Shown here piece by piece: positions 53,241-64,000 of a stretch of DNA of 64,000 nt. A program made the position numbers and the translations under genes. Position 1 is the first letter of the stretch. The number at the start of each line of letters is the position of its first letter. The stretch lies in the NCBI GenBank assembly GCA_051155775.1, contig DAXETV010000046.1, positions 12,750 to 76,749 on the forward strand. Direction: 5' to 3'. This DNA comes from Cyclobacteriaceae bacterium (GTDB lineage: Bacteria; Bacteroidota; Bacteroidia; Cytophagales; Cyclobacteriaceae). Below the pieces are notes generated by a model that saw only the letters and a list, made by a program, of their open reading frames with translations, did not search any database and had not been told where the DNA came from.

Positions 53241-53402
53241 TTAACTATAATATTGACCTGTGGTGAAGCTTACATAGGTAGGTTCAAAACCATTTCCGCC
53301 CTTAGGAAGCGATTCAGTCATAGAAGCATCCATCGGTTGAATCTCAGGAGTATTCCAGACTTTTTTATATGATTTAATAGTGTCTAATCTTTTCATCATC
53401 AT
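53241..53402 (-). CDS. candidate lasso-peptide precursor (A), 53 codons, not in ORF track
   Basis: Hand translation of the minus strand: MMMKRLDTIKSYKKVWNTPEIQPMDASMTESLPKGGNGFEPTYVSFTTGQYYS. It starts in a +1 frame inside the last 29 nt of the cyclase gene. Aromatic-xxPx(I/L) leader motif (WNTPEI), Thr-Glu-Ser junction, single acidic residue in the putative core, C-terminal Ser. Confidence 0.6.
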   Translation of the reverse strand: MMMKRLDTIKSYKKVWNTPEIQPMDASMTESLPKGGNGFEPTYVSFTTGQYYS

Positions 53403-55203
53403 ATTTTTTACAAAAAAAGTACATTAAATATTGTTTCGCAAGTTTTCCTGGTTCAATATTATCAAAATTATTATAATATTTGATTATTCTATTGTGATCT
53501 ACTATTTTATTTAGATTATTATTAACAGATATGATTTTATGATTTTCAAATATTTGTTCTTTTTCCCTTTTATGAACCATATGGAGTTCTGGTGTATTAA
53601 AACCTGTTTTTTGATTTCTATTTATTATATAAGTGGGTAATAAATCTTTAAATATTTTCTTAAATATATCCCTTTGACTATAAAAAATTGTATAAAGTAA
53701 AGAAGTTTGTGAAAGAACAGCACGAATTAACTTACGGTCAAACATTGGGTACCGGTATTCTATCCCAAAATAATCTGATGTGTTAGCGTTATTGGTAAAA
53801 AAATTATTGTGGATATAAACTTCAAGCGTGCCAATCATTCGATTTATATCAGTATTTGATTTATGTCTTTTCAACATAACCCTGGTTATTTTTTTACGAA
53901 CTATCTTTTTATATCTTTTTTTTAAAGGTATTAGTTTATCATAATTTATATTAAAGTGGAATAAGGTGTTGTAATATATCCTCATAACCAATTTTATAAT
54001 TGGAATCGGTAACCACTTAGTCTTCGATTTATGGTTCATTTTATACCTTTTTGTAACGCATTGATCACCACCCATTCCTGATATAAGAGCAGACACACCC
54101 TTTTTATTAGCTTTTTCAAATAAGACCTGTGAAATAACGGCACTTTTGCTGTTAGGGACACCGGCGTTCAATTCCAGTGATCTTTGTATTTCAATCCAAT
54201 AGTTTATATGATGGTCTTCATGAATATATTCATGTTCAAATTTATTTGGGTAGAATTTTAAAAAAGCGTTAACATAATCGAATACATCATCAGTATCTTT
54301 ATTCAGGATAGCATCTTTGGTATTATGGGAAAAAGTAAAAATTTTTTCTTGATCGCTGAGCGGAAGTTTTTTTAAAATAGCGCAAATACTCGATGAATCT
54401 AACCCACCACTTAGTTCCGCACCAACAGCTCCCCATGATCTGGCTCTTTTTTTTACAGCTTCCTCAAACAAATAATTAATCTCATCCATGTATTCAGGCA
54501 CATTGCTGGATCTTTGATTAACTTCATTTTCTAATGACCAATAAATTGATTTATAAATCTGAGTATTTGACGGTAGAGTCAACCATTCGGCGGGTAGAAT
54601 AGGAAAGATTTCTTTAAAGTAGGTTTTATCAAATGGAATAATTTTTGGGGCAATATGTTCTAAAATAGCATCATAATTAACCGTCTTTTTAACAAATGGC
54701 AGGTTAATAATACACTTTACTGAAGAAGCAAAAATGAAATATCCTTTATCTTCATAATAAAATAACGGTTTAATACCCATATGGTCCCGGACGCAAAACA
54801 GCTCTTTTTTACTGTTATCCCATATAGCAAAAGCAAAATCACCTTCCAGGTATTTTGGACTCTCCTTACCCCATTTTTCATAAGCTTTTAAGATGAAATG
54901 TGCGTCTGCCATTTTATTGGCGGTTGATACTTCAATATTTAATTTTGATATAAGCTCTTCCCGGTTATCTATCCTGCAATCTGCTACAATGATATTTCCA
55001 GATGATTTATCGATGTTGGGGAGACTAATGAACTTTGATTCGGGTGTATTATATCGATGTCTCTGTCCAAGAACAATATTGGAATTTTCCAGGATATTTT
55101 CTTCGTGATGGAACCTCGTAGTCGAATTTTCCAACATGGTTTTAACATCCCTGGTATTAACTTGAGTTTTATTCTTATATAATATTCCACATATAGTACT
55201 CAT
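53374..55203 (-). CDS. asparagine-synthetase-like lasso peptide cyclase (C)
   Basis: AsnB fold with PP-loop ELSGGLDSSSICA. The N-terminus is MSTICGI, so the Cys is not residue 2 and there is probably no Ntn glutaminase activity. Sits next to the B2 and B1 genes. Confidence 0.8.
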   Translation of the reverse strand: MSTICGILYKNKTQVNTRDVKTMLENSTTRFHHEENILENSNIVLGQRHRYNTPESKFISLPNIDKSSGNIIVADCRIDNREELISKLNIEVSTANKMADAHFILKAYEKWGKESPKYLEGDFAFAIWDNSKKELFCVRDHMGIKPLFYYEDKGYFIFASSVKCIINLPFVKKTVNYDAILEHIAPKIIPFDKTYFKEIFPILPAEWLTLPSNTQIYKSIYWSLENEVNQRSSNVPEYMDEINYLFEEAVKKRARSWGAVGAELSGGLDSSSICAILKKLPLSDQEKIFTFSHNTKDAILNKDTDDVFDYVNAFLKFYPNKFEHEYIHEDHHINYWIEIQRSLELNAGVPNSKSAVISQVLFEKANKKGVSALISGMGGDQCVTKRYKMNHKSKTKWLPIPIIKLVMRIYYNTLFHFNINYDKLIPLKKRYKKIVRKKITRVMLKRHKSNTDINRMIGTLEVYIHNNFFTNNANTSDYFGIEYRYPMFDRKLIRAVLSQTSLLYTIFYSQRDIFKKIFKDLLPTYIINRNQKTGFNTPELHMVHKREKEQIFENHKIISVNNNLNKIVDHNRIIKYYNNFDNIEPGKLAKQYLMYFFCKKYDDEKIRHY

Positions 55204-55268
55204 ATCAGTTTATTTGATTTAAGGTAAAGGGAATTGTAAAGCGTGATAGGAGTCAATAGTTCATTCAG

Positions 55269-55712
55269 TCAGGAAAATTTTACCAGCAAATTAAAACCGT
55301 TTCCATTTCCGCCAGTAACGTGTATTTTTCCACTCCTTAGCCAGGCATGTGCATCTATAATTTTGATTTTAGAATTAGTAACGCCAAAATAAACGGTTCC
55401 TGGCAAACCCCTTAACCTAAGCATTAATTTACCTGCAATTGCTTGTGCAAGACATTTGCTATTCCACGGTAAGTTTTTACTTCCTATTTTAATGAACTTT
55501 GAAAGGAGATAAGACATTTTTTCTCTTTGAAAATCAAGCATGGATGGACTATCAACATTTTTCTCGCCAAGAATTTTAACGATTAGCCTAAAAGGAAAAA
55601 AAAATATTATTAACTCAGATAAAATCAAAAAAAATACAACCTCAGCTAATAATAGCTTATCCCTTAAGCCCAGTTGTAAAAATTTGATCACTATCCTAAC
55701 CAACCTAACCAT
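55269..55712 (-). CDS. lasso peptide leader peptidase B2 (transglutaminase-like Cys protease)
   Basis: 147 aa with NSKCLAQAIA (catalytic Cys) and IIDAHAWL (His), typical of McjB C-terminal-domain homologues. Confidence 0.8.
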   Translation of the reverse strand: MVRLVRIVIKFLQLGLRDKLLLAEVVFFLILSELIIFFFPFRLIVKILGEKNVDSPSMLDFQREKMSYLLSKFIKIGSKNLPWNSKCLAQAIAGKLMLRLRGLPGTVYFGVTNSKIKIIDAHAWLRSGKIHVTGGNGNGFNLLVKFS

Positions 55713-55722
55713 ATTAATATTT

Positions 55723-56595
55723 TCAAACTTTTTCTAATGGTATATGCTCGTTAATTTTCAAGTATTCAAGTTTTTCCATTACATGGCCGTGGTTTTTGGT
55801 TAGTTCATTTATTTGGTCTTTATTTAAATAGTCATTGAAAGTGCCAACTTTTCCATTTCTAAAAAAAGTCTTACAATATATCATTTTTTCACCAAATCCT
55901 TTTTCTTGTTCCTGTTTCTGAAGGGTGTCAATATTACTATTTTCAATGGCTTTGATGATTGACTTTTCATCATAATCTAGTTCTGCAAAGGCCACTGCTT
56001 CTGAGAAAGTCTTAAGCGGGTGATTTACCATGTCTTCATACTTTATTATTTTAACTGGGAATTCTTCGTGACAAGTCCAACTTAGATAATGACCACTCCA
56101 TGTTAAGAGTATTTGTCTTAATTGATTGGTCTGTCTTTTGCCTTCTCCACAAAACGAAAATTTGGGATTATTTAAAATTTTCAATGTGTTTTTAAAATTA
56201 TCATGACCCGAATGATGTGCAAAGGATATACATATATCCAGGGGATTTCTTACAAAATATAAGGCCTTTTTTGTAGCTTCTTTAGGGATTAGAGGTTTGC
56301 CATTTGGTAAATAAGTATAGGCATCATGTATTTTACAAAACCTTTTTTCCTTCAAAGATTTACTGAAATGAATATAAGCTTCTGGTCTTAATAAATCACA
56401 TTCGTCAGGAGATAAATCTCCACTATCATATCCCAGGGGTTCATCTAATAAATGACGTGCACTGGCAATTGGTCCTCCAATTAAATTATTAATATCAACC
56501 GGATTGTTGGATTTCTTCAGCAGGTTGGTTAAAAAAACCCGGAACCAGGTATTACCGGATTTAGGATAAGAAGCCAACCAGATAATATTACCCAT
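55723..56595 (-). CDS. PAPS-dependent sulfotransferase
   Basis: 5'-PSB loop SYPKSGNTWFR and 3'-PB motif FVRNPLD. Confidence 0.8.
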   Translation of the reverse strand: MGNIIWLASYPKSGNTWFRVFLTNLLKKSNNPVDINNLIGGPIASARHLLDEPLGYDSGDLSPDECDLLRPEAYIHFSKSLKEKRFCKIHDAYTYLPNGKPLIPKEATKKALYFVRNPLDICISFAHHSGHDNFKNTLKILNNPKFSFCGEGKRQTNQLRQILLTWSGHYLSWTCHEEFPVKIIKYEDMVNHPLKTFSEAVAFAELDYDEKSIIKAIENSNIDTLQKQEQEKGFGEKMIYCKTFFRNGKVGTFNDYLNKDQINELTKNHGHVMEKLEYLKINEHIPLEKV

Positions 56596-57508
56596 CGATT
56601 AATTCAATATTTAGGTGATTCAATAATTCACCAATCATTTTCGGTAAAAAGGAAATTTCATTTCCTGGTTTTAAAATCCTGTACATTGGTACAACACTTG
56701 CCAATTTCATACTCAGTTCGAAATGAGGTTTTATAATGTCCAGCCCTTTTAAGAATTGAAATCTAAACGTGTGGTTTTTTAATGCTTGAAATTTTGCAGG
56801 TCCAGTAATGTCATTAATAGATATTTCAGGTTTATTGTGGTTGTTTAAAATAAAAATCCGATCAATAAGCGATTCATTTTTTGAATAAAAATCTTCAGGA
56901 TTTATTTTTATACATCGTTTTTCTAATGCCTCACGAATTTTTTCGAAATCATTTGGCTCCATTTCAAGAGCTTTTAGTGAATCGATCCACAATTTCATTT
57001 GAGGATATCCGGAAATAACCCGTGGAACACCCTGTTGATCAAAGCTTATTAATGAAATATCATCATTAATTACTTTAAAACCTTTATTTCTAAAAGCAGC
57101 GGCAGTAGTAGATTTACCTGCACCAGATTTACCAGCAAACAGAACAGCTTTCTCATCAATTAGTACAGAGCTTGCATGAAGGACTAATTGCTTTCTTTGT
57201 AGCAACAAAGCTCCAAAAGCAGAACCCAAAAGAAATAATCGTATATCTTTATCGTCACCACCCAAAGGTTCTATTGTAATTCTGTTTCCGTTTTCAACAA
57301 AATATTTGGCGATATTATCTACTTTCAGTAAGAGTTGATTAGGCGAAGCCCAGTATCTTATTCCCTTTGATCTGGCATTTTTTAACAGTTCAGGTACGCT
57401 TCCAAAGGAGATTGTTATGTCTTCGTTTGTAAGATTTGCTTGAATGAATTCTGGAATAAATAATTCAGATAAAATATTAAGACCAAAAGCATGATATTTA
57501 TAAGACAT
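56588..57508 (-). CDS. HPr-kinase-related (HprK C-terminal-like) peptide kinase
   Basis: P-loop FAGKSGAGKSTTAAAF in about 300 aa. This gene type accompanies phosphorylated lasso peptides (paeninodin-type clusters). Confidence 0.7.
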   Translation of the reverse strand: MSYKYHAFGLNILSELFIPEFIQANLTNEDITISFGSVPELLKNARSKGIRYWASPNQLLLKVDNIAKYFVENGNRITIEPLGGDDKDIRLFLLGSAFGALLLQRKQLVLHASSVLIDEKAVLFAGKSGAGKSTTAAAFRNKGFKVINDDISLISFDQQGVPRVISGYPQMKLWIDSLKALEMEPNDFEKIREALEKRCIKINPEDFYSKNESLIDRIFILNNHNKPEISINDITGPAKFQALKNHTFRFQFLKGLDIIKPHFELSMKLASVVPMYRILKPGNEISFLPKMIGELLNHLNIELIDG

Positions 57509-57510
57509 AA

Positions 57511-57792
57511 TTATTGAGATACTGAGATTAAATTTTTTTCATTAAGATGATTAAGAAATTCAAATACTTCTTTTGTGCATTTTTCTTTACTTACATCATA
57601 TTCTTGCAAGAGTGTATTTATAATATCAGAAATTTTTTTAGGATTTGATATCATTTCCCATATATCAGTTGCAATTGGATTCATCTTATAATATTCACCA
57701 TTATCGATGCTCATTAGCACGGCTTCATTGTCTAATTTACTTGAAATTTGATCCTCAGCCTGACGAACAATCATTTCTTCGGTTAAACTCAT
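57511..57792 (-). CDS. PqqD-family RiPP recognition element (lasso B1)
   Basis: 93 aa. ...EAVLMSIDNGEYYKMNPIATDIWEMI...EVFEFLNHLNEKNLI pattern of PqqD/RRE proteins. Confidence 0.8.
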   Translation of the reverse strand: MSLTEEMIVRQAEDQISSKLDNEAVLMSIDNGEYYKMNPIATDIWEMISNPKKISDIINTLLQEYDVSKEKCTKEVFEFLNHLNEKNLISVSQ

Positions 57793-57812
57793 TTATTCAA
57801 GATTATTATATG

Positions 57813-57820
57813 CAAATATA
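57813..57820 (-). promoter_or_regulatory. -7 box TATATTTG (minus strand) upstream of the lasso operon
   Basis: Exact TAnnTTTG, 20 nt upstream of the B1 ATG, in the 102-nt divergent intergenic region. Confidence 0.4.
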
Positions 57821-57894
57821 TTTAGGCTATCCATTTATCATAATGAATTTTGTCTTAGGTATTAATCTTTACAGACATGATAGATATTAAATAA

Positions 57895-59079
57895 ATGCAA
57901 AAAGATATAAATATAATTAATTTTCCCATTGAAACTCAAATATTGATAGAGCTCCTCAAGGATTTGCTTCAAGATCATTGTGCTAATAAATCTTTTTTCA
58001 AATTTCAGGATACAAAACACCCTTTAAAATTATTGCAACGACATAGGTTGAGCAGCTATTTTCACAAGATCCAGTCCAGGCACGAAATGGACCAAACACT
58101 CAGAGATCAATTAAAGATTAACTATTTAAAAAATATAAAATTTCAATTAGCCTTAGTAAAAGAGTTTCTCGAGATAAAAAAGTTGTTGGATGTTAATGAA
58201 GTTAAATTTTTAACCCTTAAAGGGCCAGTGTTATCTCACATCCTGTATGAGGATCCGTACACAAGAAATTTTAAGGATATTGATGTGTTGATATCACAGG
58301 AAGACATTGAAAAAACTGAAGGTATTCTGATTAATGCAGGTTTTGAGGTTCTAGATGATATTGTATTCAAAGGTCTTGATAAGAATAAAAGAGATTATTT
58401 ATTAAAATCCCGGACGCATATGGTTTATAGAAAAACCAGTAGTCAAGGGAAACCACTCATTTTAGAATTGCATTGGTCCTTAGTGAGTCCGTTTTCCTTA
58501 TTTCCCTTTTCTTTTCAGTATTTATGGGAAAATTCAATGGATGTGACCATTCATAATGTCCAAATAAAAACCATCAATCACGAATTAAACTTTGCATATC
58601 TTCTTATTCATGGATCTATACATCAGTGGGTGAGGCTGCAATGGCTTGTTGATATAATAAATTATGAGAAAAAAGAAAGCTTAATCGATGAATTTGAACT
58701 AAAGAAAATAATTAAAGAAGGCCAACTTGAAATATCTGTAGCGCAGGCACATAATTTATATCAATTACTCTTTGGGATAGAAAGTAGGTTTTCACAATTA
58801 CATCATAAAAATTGGAACAGTAGGATAATAACAAATTTTGCTCTTAGTGAAATCTCGAGAGTAAATCAATATGATAGTTCTGAATACAATAACTTAAATA
58901 GCTTTATTAACTTGATTCTGCTTAAAAATGATCTGAAACACTACATAGAGGTGATGAAGAACTTTATTATTTCATTGCAGGATTGGAAGTTAGTTCAATT
59001 ACCATCTTTTATGTTTCCATTATATGCAATTGGCCGACCGATATTTTATTTAATGAGAAAGTTTAAGGTTAAAAGGTAA
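57895..59079 (+). CDS. nucleotidyltransferase-family protein (NTP_transf_5-like)
   Basis: LTLKGPVLSHILYEDPYTRNFKDIDVLI core, with the G-x-x-x...D-x-D arrangement of uncharacterised nucleotidyltransferases commonly found beside lasso kinases. Confidence 0.65.
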   Translation: MQKDINIINFPIETQILIELLKDLLQDHCANKSFFKFQDTKHPLKLLQRHRLSSYFHKIQSRHEMDQTLRDQLKINYLKNIKFQLALVKEFLEIKKLLDVNEVKFLTLKGPVLSHILYEDPYTRNFKDIDVLISQEDIEKTEGILINAGFEVLDDIVFKGLDKNKRDYLLKSRTHMVYRKTSSQGKPLILELHWSLVSPFSLFPFSFQYLWENSMDVTIHNVQIKTINHELNFAYLLIHGSIHQWVRLQWLVDIINYEKKESLIDEFELKKIIKEGQLEISVAQAHNLYQLLFGIESRFSQLHHKNWNSRIITNFALSEISRVNQYDSSEYNNLNSFINLILLKNDLKHYIEVMKNFIISLQDWKLVQLPSFMFPLYAIGRPIFYLMRKFKVKR

Positions 59080-60221
59080 TCCACTATCTTATCCAATAAA
59101 TAAAGGTATAATGCCAGAAAGAAGACGTTGATATGAATGCCAAACCAAAAGAAAGTAATGGTTGATAGGGTACACAACAGTATTAGGTAGCTCATTAAGC
59201 CTATGAGCTGTTTCAGAAATGGATATCTATGCAGGTATTGGCTTATAATTTTTTCAATAACATCTTGAGGATAGAAAACAATCCAGGATAAAAAGAAATA
59301 GCCAATGAAAAGATAGCCCCAAAAAAGAATATCAACATATACATGCTGATTCTGAAGGTTTACTAGAGCGTTAATTAAAATGACGGGCCCACTGGTAATT
59401 TCGAATATTGTTTCATGCATATCCCGGTCAAAGAAATCACCTACCACTACAATTTTATTATTGACAAATTCAACGACATCCTCTTCAGGCAAATAGAGCA
59501 GTTCTCCAAGATTGATTGGATTAAACCCCTTTTCCTGATTCGATATATCTTTTTGAAGGATATTGAACTCCAGAATGAAATGATTTAAAGTGGTCCATTT
59601 GTCGAATCTGACGAATGGGCCTGCTTTGCCTGCTTTATCATTACATATATTTTCGTGGACGATCAGCGGTGTTAGCTTTAAGGAGTCATAATATAACTGA
59701 TATTTGTAAACCCCATCAAAAATACTTCCGGTCAAATAATCGGACAGTCCGGTTTGTACATTAGTGAAAATGATTTCTTGAGGCGTGTTATCTTCATTAA
59801 GATGTGAGGAAAGAATAATATCGTTACGCTTTGATAGTTGCTGTCCCAACAAGCTATCAAATGATGTTTTACCTAAAAAATTTATATCACAGATGATAAA
59901 CCTGGTCTCTACATCATTTCGATTTAAAATCTCAAAAAATCTTGCCAGCTTCTCTCTGTCGGTAATGGTCTGGTTGCCAATAGGAAAGCCATAGCTATCC
60001 ACCTTATCTATCAGGGCCAGGTCATTAGAGACATTGATTAATGCGAAATTTTTAGATGGAGGAATTTCTCTGAAGGGTAACTTCAACCAGGAAGTAATCC
60101 ATATCATCATTTTTTCATCCCCGGCCAACCAGGGTAAACTCATCAACCAGAAGGTAAGCAGAAAAAGTACACCAGTGTTTACAAGGGAACCTACCCAGAT
60201 AAAAAGTTTACTTCTTTTCAT
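59046..60221 (-). CDS. CHASE2-like membrane sensor protein without output domain
   Basis: N-terminal TM. Extracytoplasmic domain with FALINVSNDLALID...YGFPIGNQTITDREKLARFFEIL...FIICDINF (CHASE2-like D-x-D and WPxxR-equivalent pattern). Three to four C-terminal TM helices, then the protein ends. Confidence 0.5.
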   Translation of the reverse strand: MKRSKLFIWVGSLVNTGVLFLLTFWLMSLPWLAGDEKMMIWITSWLKLPFREIPPSKNFALINVSNDLALIDKVDSYGFPIGNQTITDREKLARFFEILNRNDVETRFIICDINFLGKTSFDSLLGQQLSKRNDIILSSHLNEDNTPQEIIFTNVQTGLSDYLTGSIFDGVYKYQLYYDSLKLTPLIVHENICNDKAGKAGPFVRFDKWTTLNHFILEFNILQKDISNQEKGFNPINLGELLYLPEEDVVEFVNNKIVVVGDFFDRDMHETIFEITSGPVILINALVNLQNQHVYVDILFWGYLFIGYFFLSWIVFYPQDVIEKIISQYLHRYPFLKQLIGLMSYLILLCTLSTITFFWFGIHINVFFLALYLYLLDKIVDYLLTLNFLIK

Positions 60222-61002
60222 TGGATAATTGAGCTAGTGCCAACTCTATACCCATCAACTGACAGCGATCATACAATTCATCCAAGAACATATAAATATC
60301 TTCTGCTTTATTGGTTTTTGTGATGGAAACAATTTCTTTTAAAAAATTGAGTTCTATGTATTTAAAATTTATTGGGCATAAAAAAGTAGATTTTTGATCG
60401 AGCGAATTGTAATAAAAAAGGCGGTATTCCTCAGGTGTTTGAGGGTTAATGGGTAGGCCATCAATAGATAATAATTCATTTTTTATTATTATAAGTGTGT
60501 CTTTATTGTAAGAAAGCTTTTTATTAACCAACTCATCCATATAACGATATTGGATATAAAAGAAATTTTTTTCATTCATTGGATAAGCGGCGCTTGACAC
60601 ATTAATTGTAAGCCTATCACCGACAAAGGCAAATTCATTCCCGAAAAATTTTTTAAAGTCCAGGTCATTATTGATTCCTCCGGAACGGGTACTCATCCTT
60701 CCACGCATAGGCTTTATTATTGATTTTAATGCATATTCAAGGTCGTTTGAGTTGCTATTTTCTTGCTCAGGTTTTAATATAAATCTTCCTTTATCAGGAT
60801 CTAAAACTGCAGCTATTGATTTTGGGTCTCCAAATTTCAGTATTTCATCTGATGATATTTTTTGGCCTCTGGTTAAGGTTTTGTTATTCGAAGCCAGCTT
60901 GACAATTCCCTTTACATGGATGACAACATATTCCTGGGCTGATATTTGACTGGAGAATAATAAGGCCTGAAATAATAAGAGACATTTTAACGGTATTTTC
61001 AT
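60208..61002 (-). CDS. secreted hypothetical protein (weak FecR-like N-terminal beta segment)
   Basis: Signal peptide LLLFQALLFSSQISAQ. VVIHVKGIVKL...LTRGQKISSDEILKFGDPKSIAAVL resembles FecR-domain starts. Overlaps the downstream CHASE2-like gene by 14 nt. Confidence 0.4.
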   Translation of the reverse strand: MKIPLKCLLLFQALLFSSQISAQEYVVIHVKGIVKLASNNKTLTRGQKISSDEILKFGDPKSIAAVLDPDKGRFILKPEQENSNSNDLEYALKSIIKPMRGRMSTRSGGINNDLDFKKFFGNEFAFVGDRLTINVSSAAYPMNEKNFFYIQYRYMDELVNKKLSYNKDTLIIIKNELLSIDGLPINPQTPEEYRLFYYNSLDQKSTFLCPINFKYIELNFLKEIVSITKTNKAEDIYMFLDELYDRCQLMGIELALAQLSNEKK

Positions 61003-61004
61003 GA

Positions 61005-64000
61005 TTAATAGATTGTAAAATCCCTTTTTAAGTTTTCTTCCCTTGAGGTGGGTACTTGCTTGCCATCTGATAATCTTACTACCTGTTCTGTGACATATTG
61101 TTGAATCTCTGTGATGGAGTATTTTCTATCCCGGTTAAGGTCCGCTCTACGGGTCTCTATCCCCTGTAAAATGCATGAAGTAAACAATCCATTAGAGGAA
61201 TTGACACCTTCAAGTGCGAATTCAGTTGCACCGGCAGCAGAGATAACTGTAGCACCGGTTCCTTTTTTTAAATCACCAAATAATGTTTTTGATAGCTCGA
61301 GCGTGTTTTCTAATCCAAAACTGTTTTCTTTCATTTTCACCAGCTTACCGGTAGATCTGAAAGCCACAGCTCCGGTTTGCTGAACTTCGTTATTAGCATC
61401 TTCTATCTCGTCCTCATCTAATTCACCGGAATGGCAGGTATCCATAAAGAGTGCCTTATTTCGACTTTTTATTCCATCAAGAATCTCTTGTAAATCCTCA
61501 TAAGGGAGTCCTCTGCCTGCCGGATTAGAAAAATCCATTTCATGGGTCGCAAAGTAATAATTGTATTCATCATCTAACACACCATGACCAGCAATGAATA
61601 TCAAAACAACATCATCGATATTCGCTTCTGATAAGAACTTTTTAAGGTCTAATATATTTGCTTTGGTCGCTTTATCATTTATGAGTGCTTTATGGTATAC
61701 ATTTTCGAATGAGGACGAGTTTTTTAATGTATTGATCAGATCACTGGCGTCCTTTGAAGCGAATGTTAGATTATAATTGCTTTGTTTGTAATCGGAAACG
61801 CCGATTGTTACCAGGTATAAACATGGTTTGTAATATGCCCCCACATATTTTATCTCAAAGCTTTCGGGGATAGATTCGAGACCACTTTTGTTGATTGCTG
61901 AGATTTTAATTTCATTTATACCGGAAGACAACTGTAAATCGATGGTTTCGCTCCATGATTGTAACGATTCACTACCTATATCCATTCCTTTTGAGCCAAA
62001 TACCGGTACATCATTTACGTAAACATGTATTTTTTTTAGTTCCTGATGGTTTCCGTCAGCAGCTATTGGTAATCTAAAATTTTGAGATTTGGTTACATAA
62101 GGAATTTTTTCATAATTAATTTTTACAGTAGGTAAATTGTAAGAACCTTCCAAATTATCTTCTGTAAATCCTAATCGTTTGAGCCTCTTCTTGTAAGCAG
62201 ACCTGTAAGAAGAAACCAGTTTGTCAGAAGCATAGCCCAGCCTTTCTGCCACAATATCCGGTCGGTTAAATTTTAATTCAACTTGTTGAAGGGGCAGTAT
62301 ATTACCATCATCTTTAAAAGCAATAGCCATGCTGGCATTTTTCGAAGAGGTGTAATAATAATCTGGCGTATAGGTGATGTAGTCCGAATTATTGATTAAA
62401 CACATACTTGCAACTTTCTTCTTTTGAGTGATATCATATAGGGTTATCTCACCTTGCCTATTGGTTGTGATCAGGTATTTCCCATCTTTACTGAAACATG
62501 CATCAGTTATTAAACCTATCTGATTGTCTTTTATGACCGCTCTATCTCCTTTGATTAATCTTAAAGAATATCCATCCCATGATACATGATAATCTTTATA
62601 ATCATACTTATCTTCTAAAGACACTTTAGTTTCTCCTTTTACCTTTTTTGATTTACCTGTTTTTCTATCATATAGCCTTACATCATCGTCACTTTTCAGC
62701 ATAGACATGCCTATTCCAGCATCGTCAGTGGATTTATATTTAGCGTAGATTTCGTTGGGGTTGCCAGAAAATTTCACCCAGGTAAATTCCTTATTCTTCT
62801 CTAGTATTGATTTTAGTAATCTGCCGTTTTTGAAATTCCATACTTTAAAAAAGCTGGTGCCGGGAGATGTTGTTGCTATATACTTCCCATTGTTGCTTAT
62901 GTCAATCTGATTTATATTTGGTGATCTGTCAAATTCCCTAACCAGTCTACCTGTAGTAATATCCCACATGGTCATGTTTTTTCTTTCAGAACCCACAAGA
63001 ATATGTTTTCCATCGGGCATGGCATCTACAGACAGCGCGGGCCTTACAAATCCCTCGAGTTTCCTGAATATTCTACCAGTCTCCATGTCCCAAAGCTTAA
63101 TTGAATGTTGGTCATCAGATGAGGCAGCAGTCTTATAATCCGGTGACATAGCTATTGAGTTTAGCCAGGCAACGCTTCCACCTTTGAATTCTTTAACCAA
63201 TGGTGGTTCATAGCCCTGGACCTCTTTCAACTTGCCATCAGGGAATTCAGCTTTTTCCATATCATATACATTGATGGAGTATTTTTTATTAAGTATGATT
63301 TTGGTTTGATCATCATTAAATACTGCCCGCGCATTAGAATAAGCGATCATCCATCTTTTTGGCTTTTTAGGATTTACAAACTTTTTGCCATCCGGGGAGA
63401 TGTCGACTAAGGAGACTGTTGAGTTGCCTGTTTCTTCTTCTTTGTCCTTGGCTGCAGCCATAGGCATGTACATATTTTGGGAGATTAAGACGGTTTTTCC
63501 ATCTTTCATAAACGCTATGTTACTGTAGTCAATGATGAAGAAATCAAGCATGTCCTTTCCGATGTTACCTTTTGCAATATTTGTAGCGATGGAAAAGCCA
63601 CTAAGCACACCATAAATGTAAGCCTTGGTCAGGCCTGAATTTTTATAATAGTTTAAAATATCATCAGTTTTTTTTCCATTTTCCAGATCCACGATAATCA
63701 ATTCAACATCATTTGTTTTTTGTCCTCCTACCACTGCTGTTTGTTGATTGGGATGAATGCTTATGGCTCTGATTTCTGAAGTAGCTGCTTCAATAGATTT
63801 TTCGGGTTTACCGGTGTTTATGTCCCATTTTTTTATTATTTTATCTTTGCCTCCTGATAGAAAAAAGAGATTGTTTTCATAAACTTCAATTGTATTAACT
63901 GCGCCTTCGTGGCCTTCGATGAAGTGAATGGGCTCATCTTTATTGTTCACATCCCAAACTATGATTTTTCCATCGGCATCCCCTGTAATAATTTTATTGC
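61005..64000 (-). CDS. WD40-repeat protein with C-terminal caspase (peptidase C14) domain (5' partial, continues right of window)
   Basis: Frame is open through 63951-64000 (...NKIITGDADGKIIVWDV...). Several GH...WD-type repeats (GHEGAVNTI...KKWD, SIKLWD, MTMWD, FKVWN). C-terminal caspase fold with His in FIAGHG (codon 61584-61586) and Cys in DTCHSG (codon 61434-61436). Confidence 0.8.
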   Translation of the reverse strand, partial: NKIITGDADGKIIVWDVNNKDEPIHFIEGHEGAVNTIEVYENNLFFLSGGKDKIIKKWDINTGKPEKSIEAATSEIRAISIHPNQQTAVVGGQKTNDVELIIVDLENGKKTDDILNYYKNSGLTKAYIYGVLSGFSIATNIAKGNIGKDMLDFFIIDYSNIAFMKDGKTVLISQNMYMPMAAAKDKEEETGNSTVSLVDISPDGKKFVNPKKPKRWMIAYSNARAVFNDDQTKIILNKKYSINVYDMEKAEFPDGKLKEVQGYEPPLVKEFKGGSVAWLNSIAMSPDYKTAASSDDQHSIKLWDMETGRIFRKLEGFVRPALSVDAMPDGKHILVGSERKNMTMWDITTGRLVREFDRSPNINQIDISNNGKYIATTSPGTSFFKVWNFKNGRLLKSILEKNKEFTWVKFSGNPNEIYAKYKSTDDAGIGMSMLKSDDDVRLYDRKTGKSKKVKGETKVSLEDKYDYKDYHVSWDGYSLRLIKGDRAVIKDNQIGLITDACFSKDGKYLITTNRQGEITLYDITQKKKVASMCLINNSDYITYTPDYYYTSSKNASMAIAFKDDGNILPLQQVELKFNRPDIVAERLGYASDKLVSSYRSAYKKRLKRLGFTEDNLEGSYNLPTVKINYEKIPYVTKSQNFRLPIAADGNHQELKKIHVYVNDVPVFGSKGMDIGSESLQSWSETIDLQLSSGINEIKISAINKSGLESIPESFEIKYVGAYYKPCLYLVTIGVSDYKQSNYNLTFASKDASDLINTLKNSSSFENVYHKALINDKATKANILDLKKFLSEANIDDVVLIFIAGHGVLDDEYNYYFATHEMDFSNPAGRGLPYEDLQEILDGIKSRNKALFMDTCHSGELDEDEIEDANNEVQQTGAVAFRSTGKLVKMKENSFGLENTLELSKTLFGDLKKGTGATVISAAGATEFALEGVNSSNGLFTSCILQGIETRRADLNRDRKYSITEIQQYVTEQVVRLSDGKQVPTSREENLKRDFTIY

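What the first reader, a model, noticed from the sequence alone, without database searches (positions are those of the whole stretch)
59046..64000. Three-gene operon: WD40-caspase, secreted protein, output-less CHASE2 sensor
All three genes are on the minus strand and essentially fused. The WD40-caspase stop (61005) is 2 nt from the next start (61002). The secreted protein overlaps the CHASE2-like gene by 14 nt. The module therefore combines a protease of the caspase/orthocaspase fold with an intact His/Cys dyad, a large beta-propeller scaffold, a signal-peptide protein with a weak FecR-like beginning, and an extracytoplasmic sensor domain. Caspase/CHAT, FecR and CHASE2 domains are known to co-occur in bacterial signalling or conflict-type neighbourhoods. 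A defined function for such a stand-alone triad has not been established. It could be an envelope-signal-triggered proteolytic switch (programmed cell death, defence or developmental processing). It sits directly beside the RiPP cluster in what looks like an accessory region.
Basis: partly seen in the sequence, partly recalled or inferred. Interest (0 to 1): 0.7.

Follow-up and report, generated by a model that had tools for sequence, protein, structure and literature searches.

The report
Exported caspase operon with CHASE2 anchor
This is a real gene cluster, conserved across marine Cytophagales bacteria, that places a caspase-type protease, two propeller proteins, an unannotated secreted protein and a sensor-like membrane protein with no output domain all outside the cytoplasm; its function is untested, but it looks like an envelope protease machine rather than a cell-suicide switch.

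Summary
The three minus-strand genes, their junctions (2-nt gap, 14-nt overlap) and the caspase His/Cys dyad (Cys codon 61434-61436) are all as described.

Four points change the picture:
- **Operon size.** It has four genes. The caspase gene is cut by the window end (about 87 residues missing), and relatives carry an exported BamB/PQQ-like propeller gene just upstream. All four genes lie in order in 38 of 41 species-level genomes.
- **Location.** Every soluble component has a signal peptide with Gln at +1 (the Bacteroidetes Q-rule). The caspase therefore acts in the envelope, beside the CHASE2 domain, not in the cytoplasm.
- **The 264-aa protein.** It shows no FecR likeness. It belongs to a large family with no Pfam annotation (1066 clusters) that also occurs away from caspases.
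- **The 391-aa protein.** It is a divergent CHASE2 by homologue transitivity and topology, with no output domain.

The module has window-typical GC and shares flanking genes within Reichenbachiella, so it is not an accessory island. The neighbouring lasso-peptide cluster is incidental.

Secreted WD40-metacaspases next to a CHASE2 protein were noted in Psychroflexus torquis in 2014, without a function.

Best reading, which is inferred: a CHASE2-anchored or CHASE2-gated periplasmic Arg/Lys-specific protease complex. Interest is moderate.

The parts
61005..64000 (-). Gene for the exported WD40 - Ig-like - caspase (Peptidase C14) protein. Its 5' end is cut by the window edge: 997 codons are in the window, and the full length is 1084 aa in the relative that is 97% identical over this protein.
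   Evidence: The frame stays open to 63998. Pfam WD40 and Peptidase_C14 hits. It is 97% identical to residues 88-1084 of the L002 protein, whose N-terminus MKPLQAPLIGLIIFFNIYVHG|QHKD is a signal peptide.
62394..63998 (-). WD40 beta-propeller region of the caspase protein (approximate limits).
   Evidence: Pfam WD40-type hits fall between residues 6 and 518 of the 981-aa ORF.
61017..61808 (-). Caspase (Peptidase_C14) domain. Catalytic His codon at 61584-61586 (AGHG) and Cys codon at 61434-61436 (DTCHSG).
   Evidence: Pfam residues 715-978 of the 981-aa ORF, E=6.9e-16. Codons were located and the dyad is invariant in 40 of 40 orthologues.
60208..61002 (-). Gene for an exported 264-aa two-domain protein ('p2') of a large family with no Pfam annotation. 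It starts 2 nt after the caspase stop.
   Evidence: ORF. Junction. No Pfam, NCBIfam or PADLOC hit. AF2 model with pLDDT 86. Family of 1066 clusters.
60937..61002 (-). Signal peptide of p2 (residues 1-22). The mature N-terminus is the invariant Gln23.
   Evidence: Alignment of 30 orthologues with Q23 invariant. Helix 5-16 in the model. Q-rule (PMC5837995).
60667..60711 (-). Most conserved linear motif of p2, P98-x-R-G-x-x-S-T-R106-x-G-x-I-N-N112. It sits at the end of a low-confidence linker between the two beta domains.
   Evidence: Invariant columns. pLDDT is below 50 for residues 81-101. R106 is invariant even in family members outside the module.
59046..60221 (-). Gene for a 391-aa divergent CHASE2 membrane protein with no output domain. 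It overlaps the p2 gene by 14 nt.
   Evidence: ORF. Overlap. 18 of 38 homologues hit PF05226, best E=1.5e-11. P0038 passes the gathering cutoff. AF2 pTM 0.85.
60150..60206 (-). N-terminal transmembrane helix of the CHASE2 protein (residues 6-24).
   Evidence: Hydropathy. Helix 2-28 in the model.
59331..60149 (-). Extracytoplasmic CHASE2 domain (residues 25-297).
   Evidence: Position between the TM helices. The Pfam CHASE2 match in the 49%-identical P0038 covers residues 47-309.
59082..59330 (-). Three C-terminal transmembrane helices (residues 298-380). Only 11 residues follow, so there is no cytoplasmic output domain.
   Evidence: Hydropathy. Helices 298-316, 334-360 and 366-387.

Best explanation
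The locus is the distal three-quarters of a conserved four-gene operon. The gene order is an exported BamB/PQQ-like propeller (outside the window), then an exported WD40-Ig-caspase, then the exported protein p2, then an inner-membrane CHASE2 protein. Together these build a protease assembly that lies wholly outside the cytoplasm.

Shown here:
- All three soluble proteins are Sec/SPI substrates.
- The CHASE2 domain faces the same compartment, and the CHASE2 protein has no cytoplasmic domain.
- The caspase keeps its His/Cys dyad.
- The genes are translationally coupled and co-inherited.

Inferred:
- The CHASE2 protein acts as a membrane anchor and receptor. Its 'output' is not a kinase or cyclase but the partner caspase.
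- p2, always encoded immediately upstream of the CHASE2 gene, is its periplasmic co-receptor or adaptor.
- The propellers recruit the protein or envelope-derived ligand or substrate.
- On binding, the metacaspase-like enzyme, predicted to be Arg/Lys-specific, cleaves periplasmic or envelope proteins.

Whether the cleavage remodels the envelope, matures a surface protein or releases a signal is unknown.
For: Operon structure:
- 2-nt gap and 14-nt overlap at the junctions.
- No internal terminator-like site on the coding (minus) strand; the only one found in the region is on the plus strand.

Conservation:
- p2 is adjacent to CHASE2 in 44 of 46 loci, the caspase is adjacent in 41 of 44, and all four genes are in order in 38 of 41.
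- The caspase-p2-CHASE2 triad persists at 28-38% identity for p2 and CHASE2 in L053 and L054.
- The flanks differ between genera.

Export:
- Signal peptides followed by Gln at +1 occur in 36 of 36 BamB-like and 40 of 40 caspase orthologues, and Q23 is invariant in p2 (Q-rule PMC5837995).

CHASE2 protein:
- Topology and absence of an output domain.
- CHASE2 homology.

Caspase:
- Dyad invariant.
- The Asp two residues before the Cys (DTCHSG) is the metacaspase S1-pocket position. This rests on established knowledge of metacaspases and was not tested here.

Precedents:
- Caspase and CHASE2 are fused in single proteins elsewhere (PMC3501461; PMC8195603).
- An exported accessory gene sits directly upstream of CHASE2 kinases (PMC5192318).
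- The one CHASE2 signal cited in the papers read here is a protein (PMC13001267).
- In both AF2 models, invariant residues lie in low-confidence loops, which is consistent with partner-binding surfaces.
Against: - No physical interaction, activity, substrate or phenotype is known for any member.
- Co-localisation and synteny do not show that CHASE2 regulates the protease. It could be only an anchor, or even a substrate.
- The p2 family also occurs without caspase or CHASE2 (L052, L055, L058), and one genome has p2-CHASE2 without an adjacent caspase (L022).
- The conserved Arg motif of p2 is family-wide, not module-specific, so it gives no specific support for p2 being the caspase's substrate.
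- No solved structure exists to validate the CHASE2 model.
- Signal peptides were judged by sequence rules, not by a trained predictor.
Confidence: 0.45

Rival explanations
1. A constitutive envelope maturation or quality-control machine. The exported caspase, held by propeller scaffolds and a membrane anchor, processes or attaches cell-surface or periplasmic proteins all the time. It would work rather like the clan-CD peptidase PorU with the propeller protein PorZ in the Bacteroidota type IX secretion attachment complex. The CHASE2 protein would be a passive anchor.
For: - Single conserved locus across a family-level clade, with vertical inheritance in Reichenbachiella and genome-typical GC.
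- All parts are exported.
- The CHASE2 protein has no output domain.
- The PorU/PorZ analogy comes from general knowledge. PMC11285876 (listed) names both as T9SS proteins.
Against: - The proteins carry no visible T9SS C-terminal domain, since the caspase domain ends the protein.
- C14 is a different family from the C25-like PorU.
- The canonical CHASE2 motifs and many invariant acidic and His residues in the extracytoplasmic domain are preserved, which is more than a passive anchor would need.
Confidence: 0.25
2. An outward-directed weapon or feeding device. The exported caspase and propellers bind and cut proteins of other organisms (algae, prey, competitors) or dissolved protein, as was speculated for the Psychroflexus torquis metacaspase island.
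For: - Marine surface-associated or algae-associated hosts (record titles).
- The P. torquis cluster of secreted WD40-metacaspases with a CHASE2 protein was discussed in this light (PMC3914696).
- L054 encodes lipoprotein-type versions.
Against: - No secretion signal beyond Sec was detected, so passage across the outer membrane is unexplained.
- Tight coupling to an inner-membrane protein argues for action in the periplasm.
- Single-copy, vertically inherited genes are unlike typical variable weapon loci.
Confidence: 0.13
3. One reading: an envelope-signal-triggered programmed-cell-death or anti-phage switch in which the caspase kills or arrests the cell from within.
For: - Caspase-like proteases act in bacterial conflict systems.
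- The PADLOC generic caspase model hits the domain (E=9e-14).
- The best NCBIfam match is the EACC1-associated caspase.
- Caspase-CHASE2 fusions occur in conflict-type systems (PMC8195603).
Against: - The caspase is exported in all 40 orthologues.
- The CHASE2 protein cannot signal inward on its own.
- The EACC1 model score of 81.8 is below its cutoff of 140.
- No other defence-system model hits.
- No NTPase, effector-associated domain or toxin lies in the conserved unit.
- The locus is vertically inherited with typical GC, not a defence island.
Confidence: 0.07
4. Neighbouring but functionally unrelated genes.
For: - p2 relatives occur in other contexts.
- One genome has the caspase on the other strand, 3 kb away (L041).
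Against: - The order is conserved in 38 of 41 genomes while the flanks change.
- Start and stop codons overlap or abut.
- The triad is retained at about 30% identity.
Confidence: 0.03

Closest known systems
Psychroflexus torquis ATCC 700755 genomic island 15: cluster of WD40-repeat metacaspases with a CHASE2 family protein (PMC3914696)
   Same: - Bacteroidota host.
- Large WD40-metacaspase proteins flagged as carrying signal peptides.
- A CHASE2 family protein encoded among them.
- Function unknown.
   Different: - It is a 35-kb island with four metacaspases and a LytTR regulator, flanked by transposases and tRNA genes. Here there is a compact four-gene operon, vertically inherited within a genus and of typical GC.
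- I could not check whether the island holds p2 or BamB-like homologues.
Caspase-CHASE2 fusion proteins: the Trichodesmium erythraeum metacaspase-CHASE2 protein (PMC3501461) and EACC2-caspase-CHASE2 proteins (PMC8195603)
   Same: [quoted passage not shown]
   Different: - In the fusions the two domains are one polypeptide, with the caspase predicted in the cytoplasm and CHASE2 outside.
- Here they are separate proteins, and both lie outside the cytoplasm.
LysM-FecR protein + CHASE2 histidine kinase operons of Burkholderiales ('BiofilmReg', PMC5192318)
   Same: A signal-peptide accessory protein is encoded immediately upstream of, and coupled to, a CHASE2 membrane protein.
   Different: - There the CHASE2 protein carries PAS-HisKA-HATPase output and pairs with a response regulator.
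- Their accessory protein has LysM and FecR domains, whereas p2 has neither.
- No protease is present.
Orthocaspases and metacaspases (Peptidase C14B), e.g. MaOC1 of Microcystis (PMC7935541; PMC6426788)
   Same: - p20-type fold with the His/Cys dyad.
- A DxCHSG motif implying cleavage after basic residues.
   Different: - This protein has a signal peptide, N-terminal WD40 propellers and an Ig-like spacer.
- It has operon partners, and no toxin-antitoxin link.
- Its activity is untested.
Sinorhizobium meliloti CHASE2 adenylate cyclases CyaD1/CyaD2/CyaK with outer-membrane NsrA (PMC13001267)
   Same: A CHASE2 receptor works together with other envelope proteins and responds to a signal of protein nature.
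   Different: - Those receptors have a cytoplasmic cyclase output and a known downstream regulator (Clr).
- No protease is involved.

Membership tests
Peptidase C14 (caspase / metacaspase / orthocaspase) | Profile match to the caspase p20/p10 domain above the curated threshold | tested here: met
   PF00656 E=6.9e-16, 59.1 bits against a cutoff of 21.4, covering profile positions 6-232 of 233.
Peptidase C14 (caspase / metacaspase / orthocaspase) | Catalytic His and Cys dyad | tested here: met
   His in AGHG and Cys in DTCHSG, invariant in 40 of 40 orthologues.
Peptidase C14 (caspase / metacaspase / orthocaspase) | Proteolytic activity with P1 Arg/Lys preference (metacaspase/orthocaspase branch) | not testable with these tools
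   Only the Asp at position -2 from the Cys (DTCHSG), invariant in orthologues, points to a basic P1 preference. That link rests on general knowledge of metacaspase S1 pockets.
NCBIfam NF047832, caspase of the EACC1-associated type (conflict systems) | Score above the curated cutoff | tested here: not met
   81.8 bits against a cutoff of 140. The match is partial, covering profile positions 4-161 of 211.
CHASE2 (PF05226) | Profile match of the window protein itself | tested here: not met
   No CHASE2 hit even at E<=10.
CHASE2 (PF05226) | Profile match through close homologues (transitive homology) | tested here: met
   - 18 of 38 full-length homologues (43-54% identical) hit PF05226, best E=1.5e-11.
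- P0038 scores 30.5 bits against a cutoff of 26.3, covering profile positions 31-253 of 257.
- Many homologues are named CHASE2 by their source databases.
CHASE2 (PF05226) | Topology: one TM helix, an extracytoplasmic domain, then three TM helices | tested here: met
   TM helix at 6-24, a loop of about 270 residues, then three helices at 298-387. This matches the arrangement described in PMC3501461 and PMC5192318.
CHASE2 (PF05226) | Fold agreement with a solved CHASE2 structure | not testable with these tools
   Nothing comparable in the PDB: Foldseek best E=0.64 and hmmsearch found nothing meaningful.
CHASE2 signal transducers (kinase, cyclase, GGDEF outputs) | Cytoplasmic output domain after the last TM helix | tested here: not met
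   The protein ends 11 residues after the last helix, and all roughly 120 homologues are 330-410 aa long.
FecR (PF04773), tested for the 264-aa protein | Sequence-profile or fold similarity to the FecR domain | tested here: not met
   - No hit for the window protein at E<=10.
- 0 of 72 diverse family members hit FecR at E<=1.
- hhalign of the family profile against E. coli FecR gave probability 1.3%.
- Foldseek against the PDB returned only generic Ig-like matches, with TM-score below 0.47.
WD40 beta-propeller | Repeat profile matches | tested here: met
   PF00400 E=4.1e-22, plus many WD40 propeller families.
Known anti-phage defence systems (PADLOC-DB 2.0) | Matches of the components to models of a defined system | tested here: not met
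   Only a generic caspase model matched (E=9e-14, first 130 of 453 positions), plus a weak HEAT-ARM hit. Nothing matched p2 or the CHASE2 protein.
Sec/SPI-exported Bacteroidota proteins (Q-rule) | N-terminal basic and hydrophobic leader followed by Gln at +1 | tested here: met
   Seen in 36 of 36 BamB-like and 40 of 40 caspase orthologues, and Q23 is invariant in p2. The rule is from PMC5837995. A rule-based reading was used, not a trained predictor.

The most novel reading that the evidence does not exclude
CHASE2 here would be a receptor whose output is a separate, exported caspase. That would make this a proteolytic signalling or remodelling pathway that senses and acts entirely outside the cytoplasm. 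The unannotated p2 family would then be a general periplasmic co-sensor that Bacteroidota pair with different membrane receptors (CHASE2 here, a Y_Y_Y propeller sensor in L055).
Probability: 0.25. Interest if true: 0.7.

Novelty: new variant of a known kind. Interest (0 to 1): 0.45.

Why it matters
Bacterial caspase homologues are usually discussed as cytoplasmic death or defence proteases, and CHASE2 is a widespread sensor domain for which the papers read here report no small-molecule ligand and the PDB copy searched holds no comparable structure. This locus offers a compact, genetically simple case. It has four genes, single-copy as far as seen, and is present in cultivable Reichenbachiella and Ekhidna strains. 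An intact caspase sits in the same extracytoplasmic compartment as a CHASE2 domain that has no other output.

If the two work together, three things would follow:
- CHASE2 would gain a testable partner and read-out.
- A caspase-type protease would be shown acting in the bacterial envelope.
- A first functional handle would exist for a family of more than 1000 protein clusters with no annotation.

If they do not work together, the locus is simply another uncharacterised conserved operon.

Tried and rejected
- **FecR likeness of p2.** Rejected after three negative tests.
- **Direct family assignment of p2 and the CHASE2 protein.** Pfam, NCBIfam and PADLOC gave nothing for the window sequences.
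- **PDB sequence and fold searches.** No sequence match for the caspase domain. Nothing meaningful for the CHASE2 profile or model.
- **An apparent p2-CHASE2 fusion in L006 (650 aa).** This was an artefact of my ORF-extension script; there is a stop at codon 257.
- **The invariant Arg motif of p2 as the caspase cleavage site.** Downgraded. R106 is invariant also in family members outside the module, and the R/K at position 100 is not kept in the distant module members L053 and L054.
- **Wider neighbourhood statistics for the p2 family from metagenome contigs.** Both alignments were too diverse for the tool. Single look-ups mostly returned contigs too short to judge.
- **A link between the module and the lasso-peptide cluster.** Rejected, because the adjacency is seen only in the window and its closest relative.
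- **Sigma-70 promoter scan.** No more matches than chance, and not suited to Bacteroidota.

Full report
**Observation**

The third frame stays open to the last full codon of the window, so the gene is cut at its 5' end.

Reading the junctions directly gives:
- TAA, then 2 nt, then ATG between the caspase gene and the 264-aa gene.
- A 14-nt overlap between the 264-aa and 391-aa genes.

No terminator-like site lies on the coding (minus) strand; the single one found in the scanned region is on the plus strand. Sigma-70-like promoter matches are no commoner than in shuffled sequence, though that scan does not cover Bacteroidota promoters.

**The protease**

- Pfam finds Peptidase_C14 at the C-terminus (E=6.9e-16, above the curated cutoff), preceded by many WD40-type hits.
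- The catalytic His sits in AGHG (61584-61586).
- Both residues, and the Asp two positions before the Cys, are invariant in 40 orthologues.
- The best NCBIfam model is the EACC1-associated caspase, but its score is well below the cutoff.
- PADLOC gives only a generic caspase match.
- No PDB sequence is detectably related.

**What lies beyond the window**

An exact-match look-up and homologue look-ups gave contigs from a relative whose three proteins are 93-97% identical to the window's (an uncultured Roseivirgaceae MAG) and from Reichenbachiella carrageenanivorans.
- The caspase protein there is 1084 or 1066 aa long. The window copy aligns to residues 88-1084 at 97% identity.
- About 60-140 nt upstream on the same strand lies a 635-aa gene with a PQQ_2/BamB-type propeller.

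The operon therefore has four genes, and the first lies outside the window.

**Everything soluble is exported**

- The full-length caspase protein begins with a basic then hydrophobic leader that ends just before a Gln (MKPLQAPLIGLIIFFNIYVHG|QHKD).
- All 40 caspase orthologues and all 36 BamB-like orthologues show the same pattern.
- In the 264-aa protein, Gln23 directly after the leader is invariant.
- A Gln at +1 is the published hallmark of signal-peptidase-I substrates in Bacteroidetes (PMC5837995).
- In a distant relative (L054) the caspase and an extra WD40 protein carry lipoprotein-type leaders instead.

**The membrane protein**

The window protein gives no CHASE2 hit of its own, even at E<=10. 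Three lines of evidence still support the assignment:
- Its full-length homologues (43-54% identical; Reichenbachiella, Ekhidna, Cyclobacteriaceae, Roseivirgaceae) are often labelled CHASE2.
- 18 of 38 homologues hit PF05226, best E=1.5e-11.
- One 49%-identical homologue passes the gathering score across almost the whole profile.

Hydropathy and the AF2 model (pLDDT 85.8, pTM 0.85) give one N-terminal helix, an alpha/beta domain of about 270 residues, three C-terminal helices and only 11 further residues. So 'output-less CHASE2' stands. No solved structure resembles the model, so the fold could not be checked independently.

**The 264-aa protein (p2)**

- None of its homologues carries a Pfam domain.
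- A profile search of 1.84 billion representatives finds 1066 clusters (E<=1e-3), nearly all 250-290 aa long.
- The AF2 model (pLDDT 86) shows a small N-terminal beta domain and a low-confidence linker that ends in the family's most conserved motif (P98..R106..N112). A beta-sandwich with three helices follows.
- FecR likeness failed three tests: 0 of 72 members hit the FecR model, hhalign against E. coli FecR gave probability 1.3%, and Foldseek returned only generic Ig-like matches.

A scan of one genome per GTDB species returned 47 loci. Counts by tblastn:

| Arrangement | Loci |
|---|---|
| p2 directly upstream of the CHASE2 gene | 44 of 46 |
| Caspase directly upstream of p2 | 41 of 44 |
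| All four genes in order | 38 of 41 |

The exceptions are informative:
- L022 has only p2-CHASE2.
- L041 has p2-CHASE2 after polA, with the WD40-caspase 3 kb away on the other strand.
- L051 lacks the BamB-like gene.

At deeper divergence (28-38% identity for p2 and CHASE2) the caspase-p2-CHASE2 triad recurs in L053 and L054. Other p2 relatives, however, stand alone (L052), lie between a TPR-SpoIIE protein and a Y_Y_Y propeller sensor (L055), or occur as tandem paralogues (L058). In the sampled clade, p2 plus CHASE2 is the constant core and the caspase is its near-constant partner. The p2 family as a whole is broader than the module.

**Genomic setting**

- The seven Reichenbachiella loci share flanks (FtsK-LolA-TANGO2 on one side, S41 peptidase and GDH on the other). 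Other genera have different flanks.
- The module's GC (36%) matches the window average, whereas the adjacent lasso-peptide-type cluster is at 31-33%.
- That lasso cluster adjoins the module only in the window and its closest relative.

The module is therefore a vertically inherited functional unit, not part of an accessory island, and the RiPP neighbour is incidental.

**Mechanism**

Shown:
- A translationally coupled, co-inherited gene set.
- Three exported products, plus a membrane protein whose only sizeable domain faces the same compartment.
- An intact caspase dyad.

Inferred:
- The CHASE2 protein anchors and possibly gates the protease.
- p2 is its co-receptor or adaptor.
- The propellers recruit ligand or substrate.
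- Cleavage after Arg/Lys occurs in the periplasm.

Supporting precedents:
- Caspase-CHASE2 fusions (PMC3501461, PMC8195603).
- Exported accessory genes upstream of CHASE2 kinases (PMC5192318).
- A protein signal for the S. meliloti CHASE2 cyclases (PMC13001267).

I considered p2 as the caspase's substrate because of its invariant Arg in a flexible linker. That Arg is conserved in family members that have no caspase nearby, so the idea has no specific support.

Rival explanations:
- A constitutive envelope maturation machine.
- An outward-directed protease.
- Mere adjacency, disfavoured by the synteny.

**Comparison with what is known, and novelty**

No paper in the searchable library combines CHASE2 with CHAT or with FecR plus CHAT. 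A 2014 genome paper on Psychroflexus torquis did describe an island with secreted WD40-metacaspases and a CHASE2 family protein, and left the function open (PMC3914696). The association is therefore not new in kind.

New here:
- The compact four-gene core.
- Its strict conservation across a family-level clade.
- The all-extracytoplasmic topology.
- The recognition of p2 as a large unannotated family.

I rate this a new variant of a known, uncharacterised kind, of moderate interest (0.45).

Noticed in passing
window 53241-59079: A lasso-peptide-type cluster with these genes: Asn-synthase-like cyclase, Transglut_core3 protease, sulfotransferase, ScmC/HPr-kinase-like protein, PqqD, and a convergent NTP_transf_5 gene. 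Its GC is 31-33%, against 36-40% elsewhere in the window. A 53-aa ORF at 53241-53402 (minus strand) overlaps the cyclase start and could be the precursor.
   Followed up: partly
window 59046-59079: The 3' ends of the CHASE2 gene (minus strand) and the NTP_transf_5 gene (plus strand) overlap convergently by 34 nt, which leaves no room for a terminator between them.
   Followed up: no
L055:318-6228; L058:545-1816; L052:8001-8849: Members of the p2 family occur away from caspase and CHASE2 genes. One lies between a TPR-SpoIIE protein and a Y_Y_Y propeller sensor, others are tandem paralogues, and one stands alone. This hints that the family is a general periplasmic partner of different membrane receptors.
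   Followed up: partly
L041:1615-17299: In this MAG a TPR-CHAT protein and a histidine kinase lie 3-8 kb upstream of p2-CHASE2. The WD40-caspase heads an opposite-strand operon with three proteins that have no family hit (253, 495 and 319 aa).
   Followed up: no
window 59964-60023 (CHASE2 residues 67-86) and 60700-60762 (p2 residues 81-101): In the CHASE2 model, invariant residues sit inside the one long low-confidence loop (D67, L70, I71, D75, F79, G82). In p2, the low-confidence linker (residues 81-101) ends at the start of the conserved P98..R106..N112 motif. These could be binding surfaces that order only in a complex.
   Followed up: no
L054:2108-10439: A distant version of the module has lipoprotein-type leaders on the WD40-caspase (1322 aa) and on an extra 548-aa WD40 protein. 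Its p2 homologue carries a repetitive, charged N-terminal extension of about 120 residues rich in E, K, R and A.
   Followed up: partly
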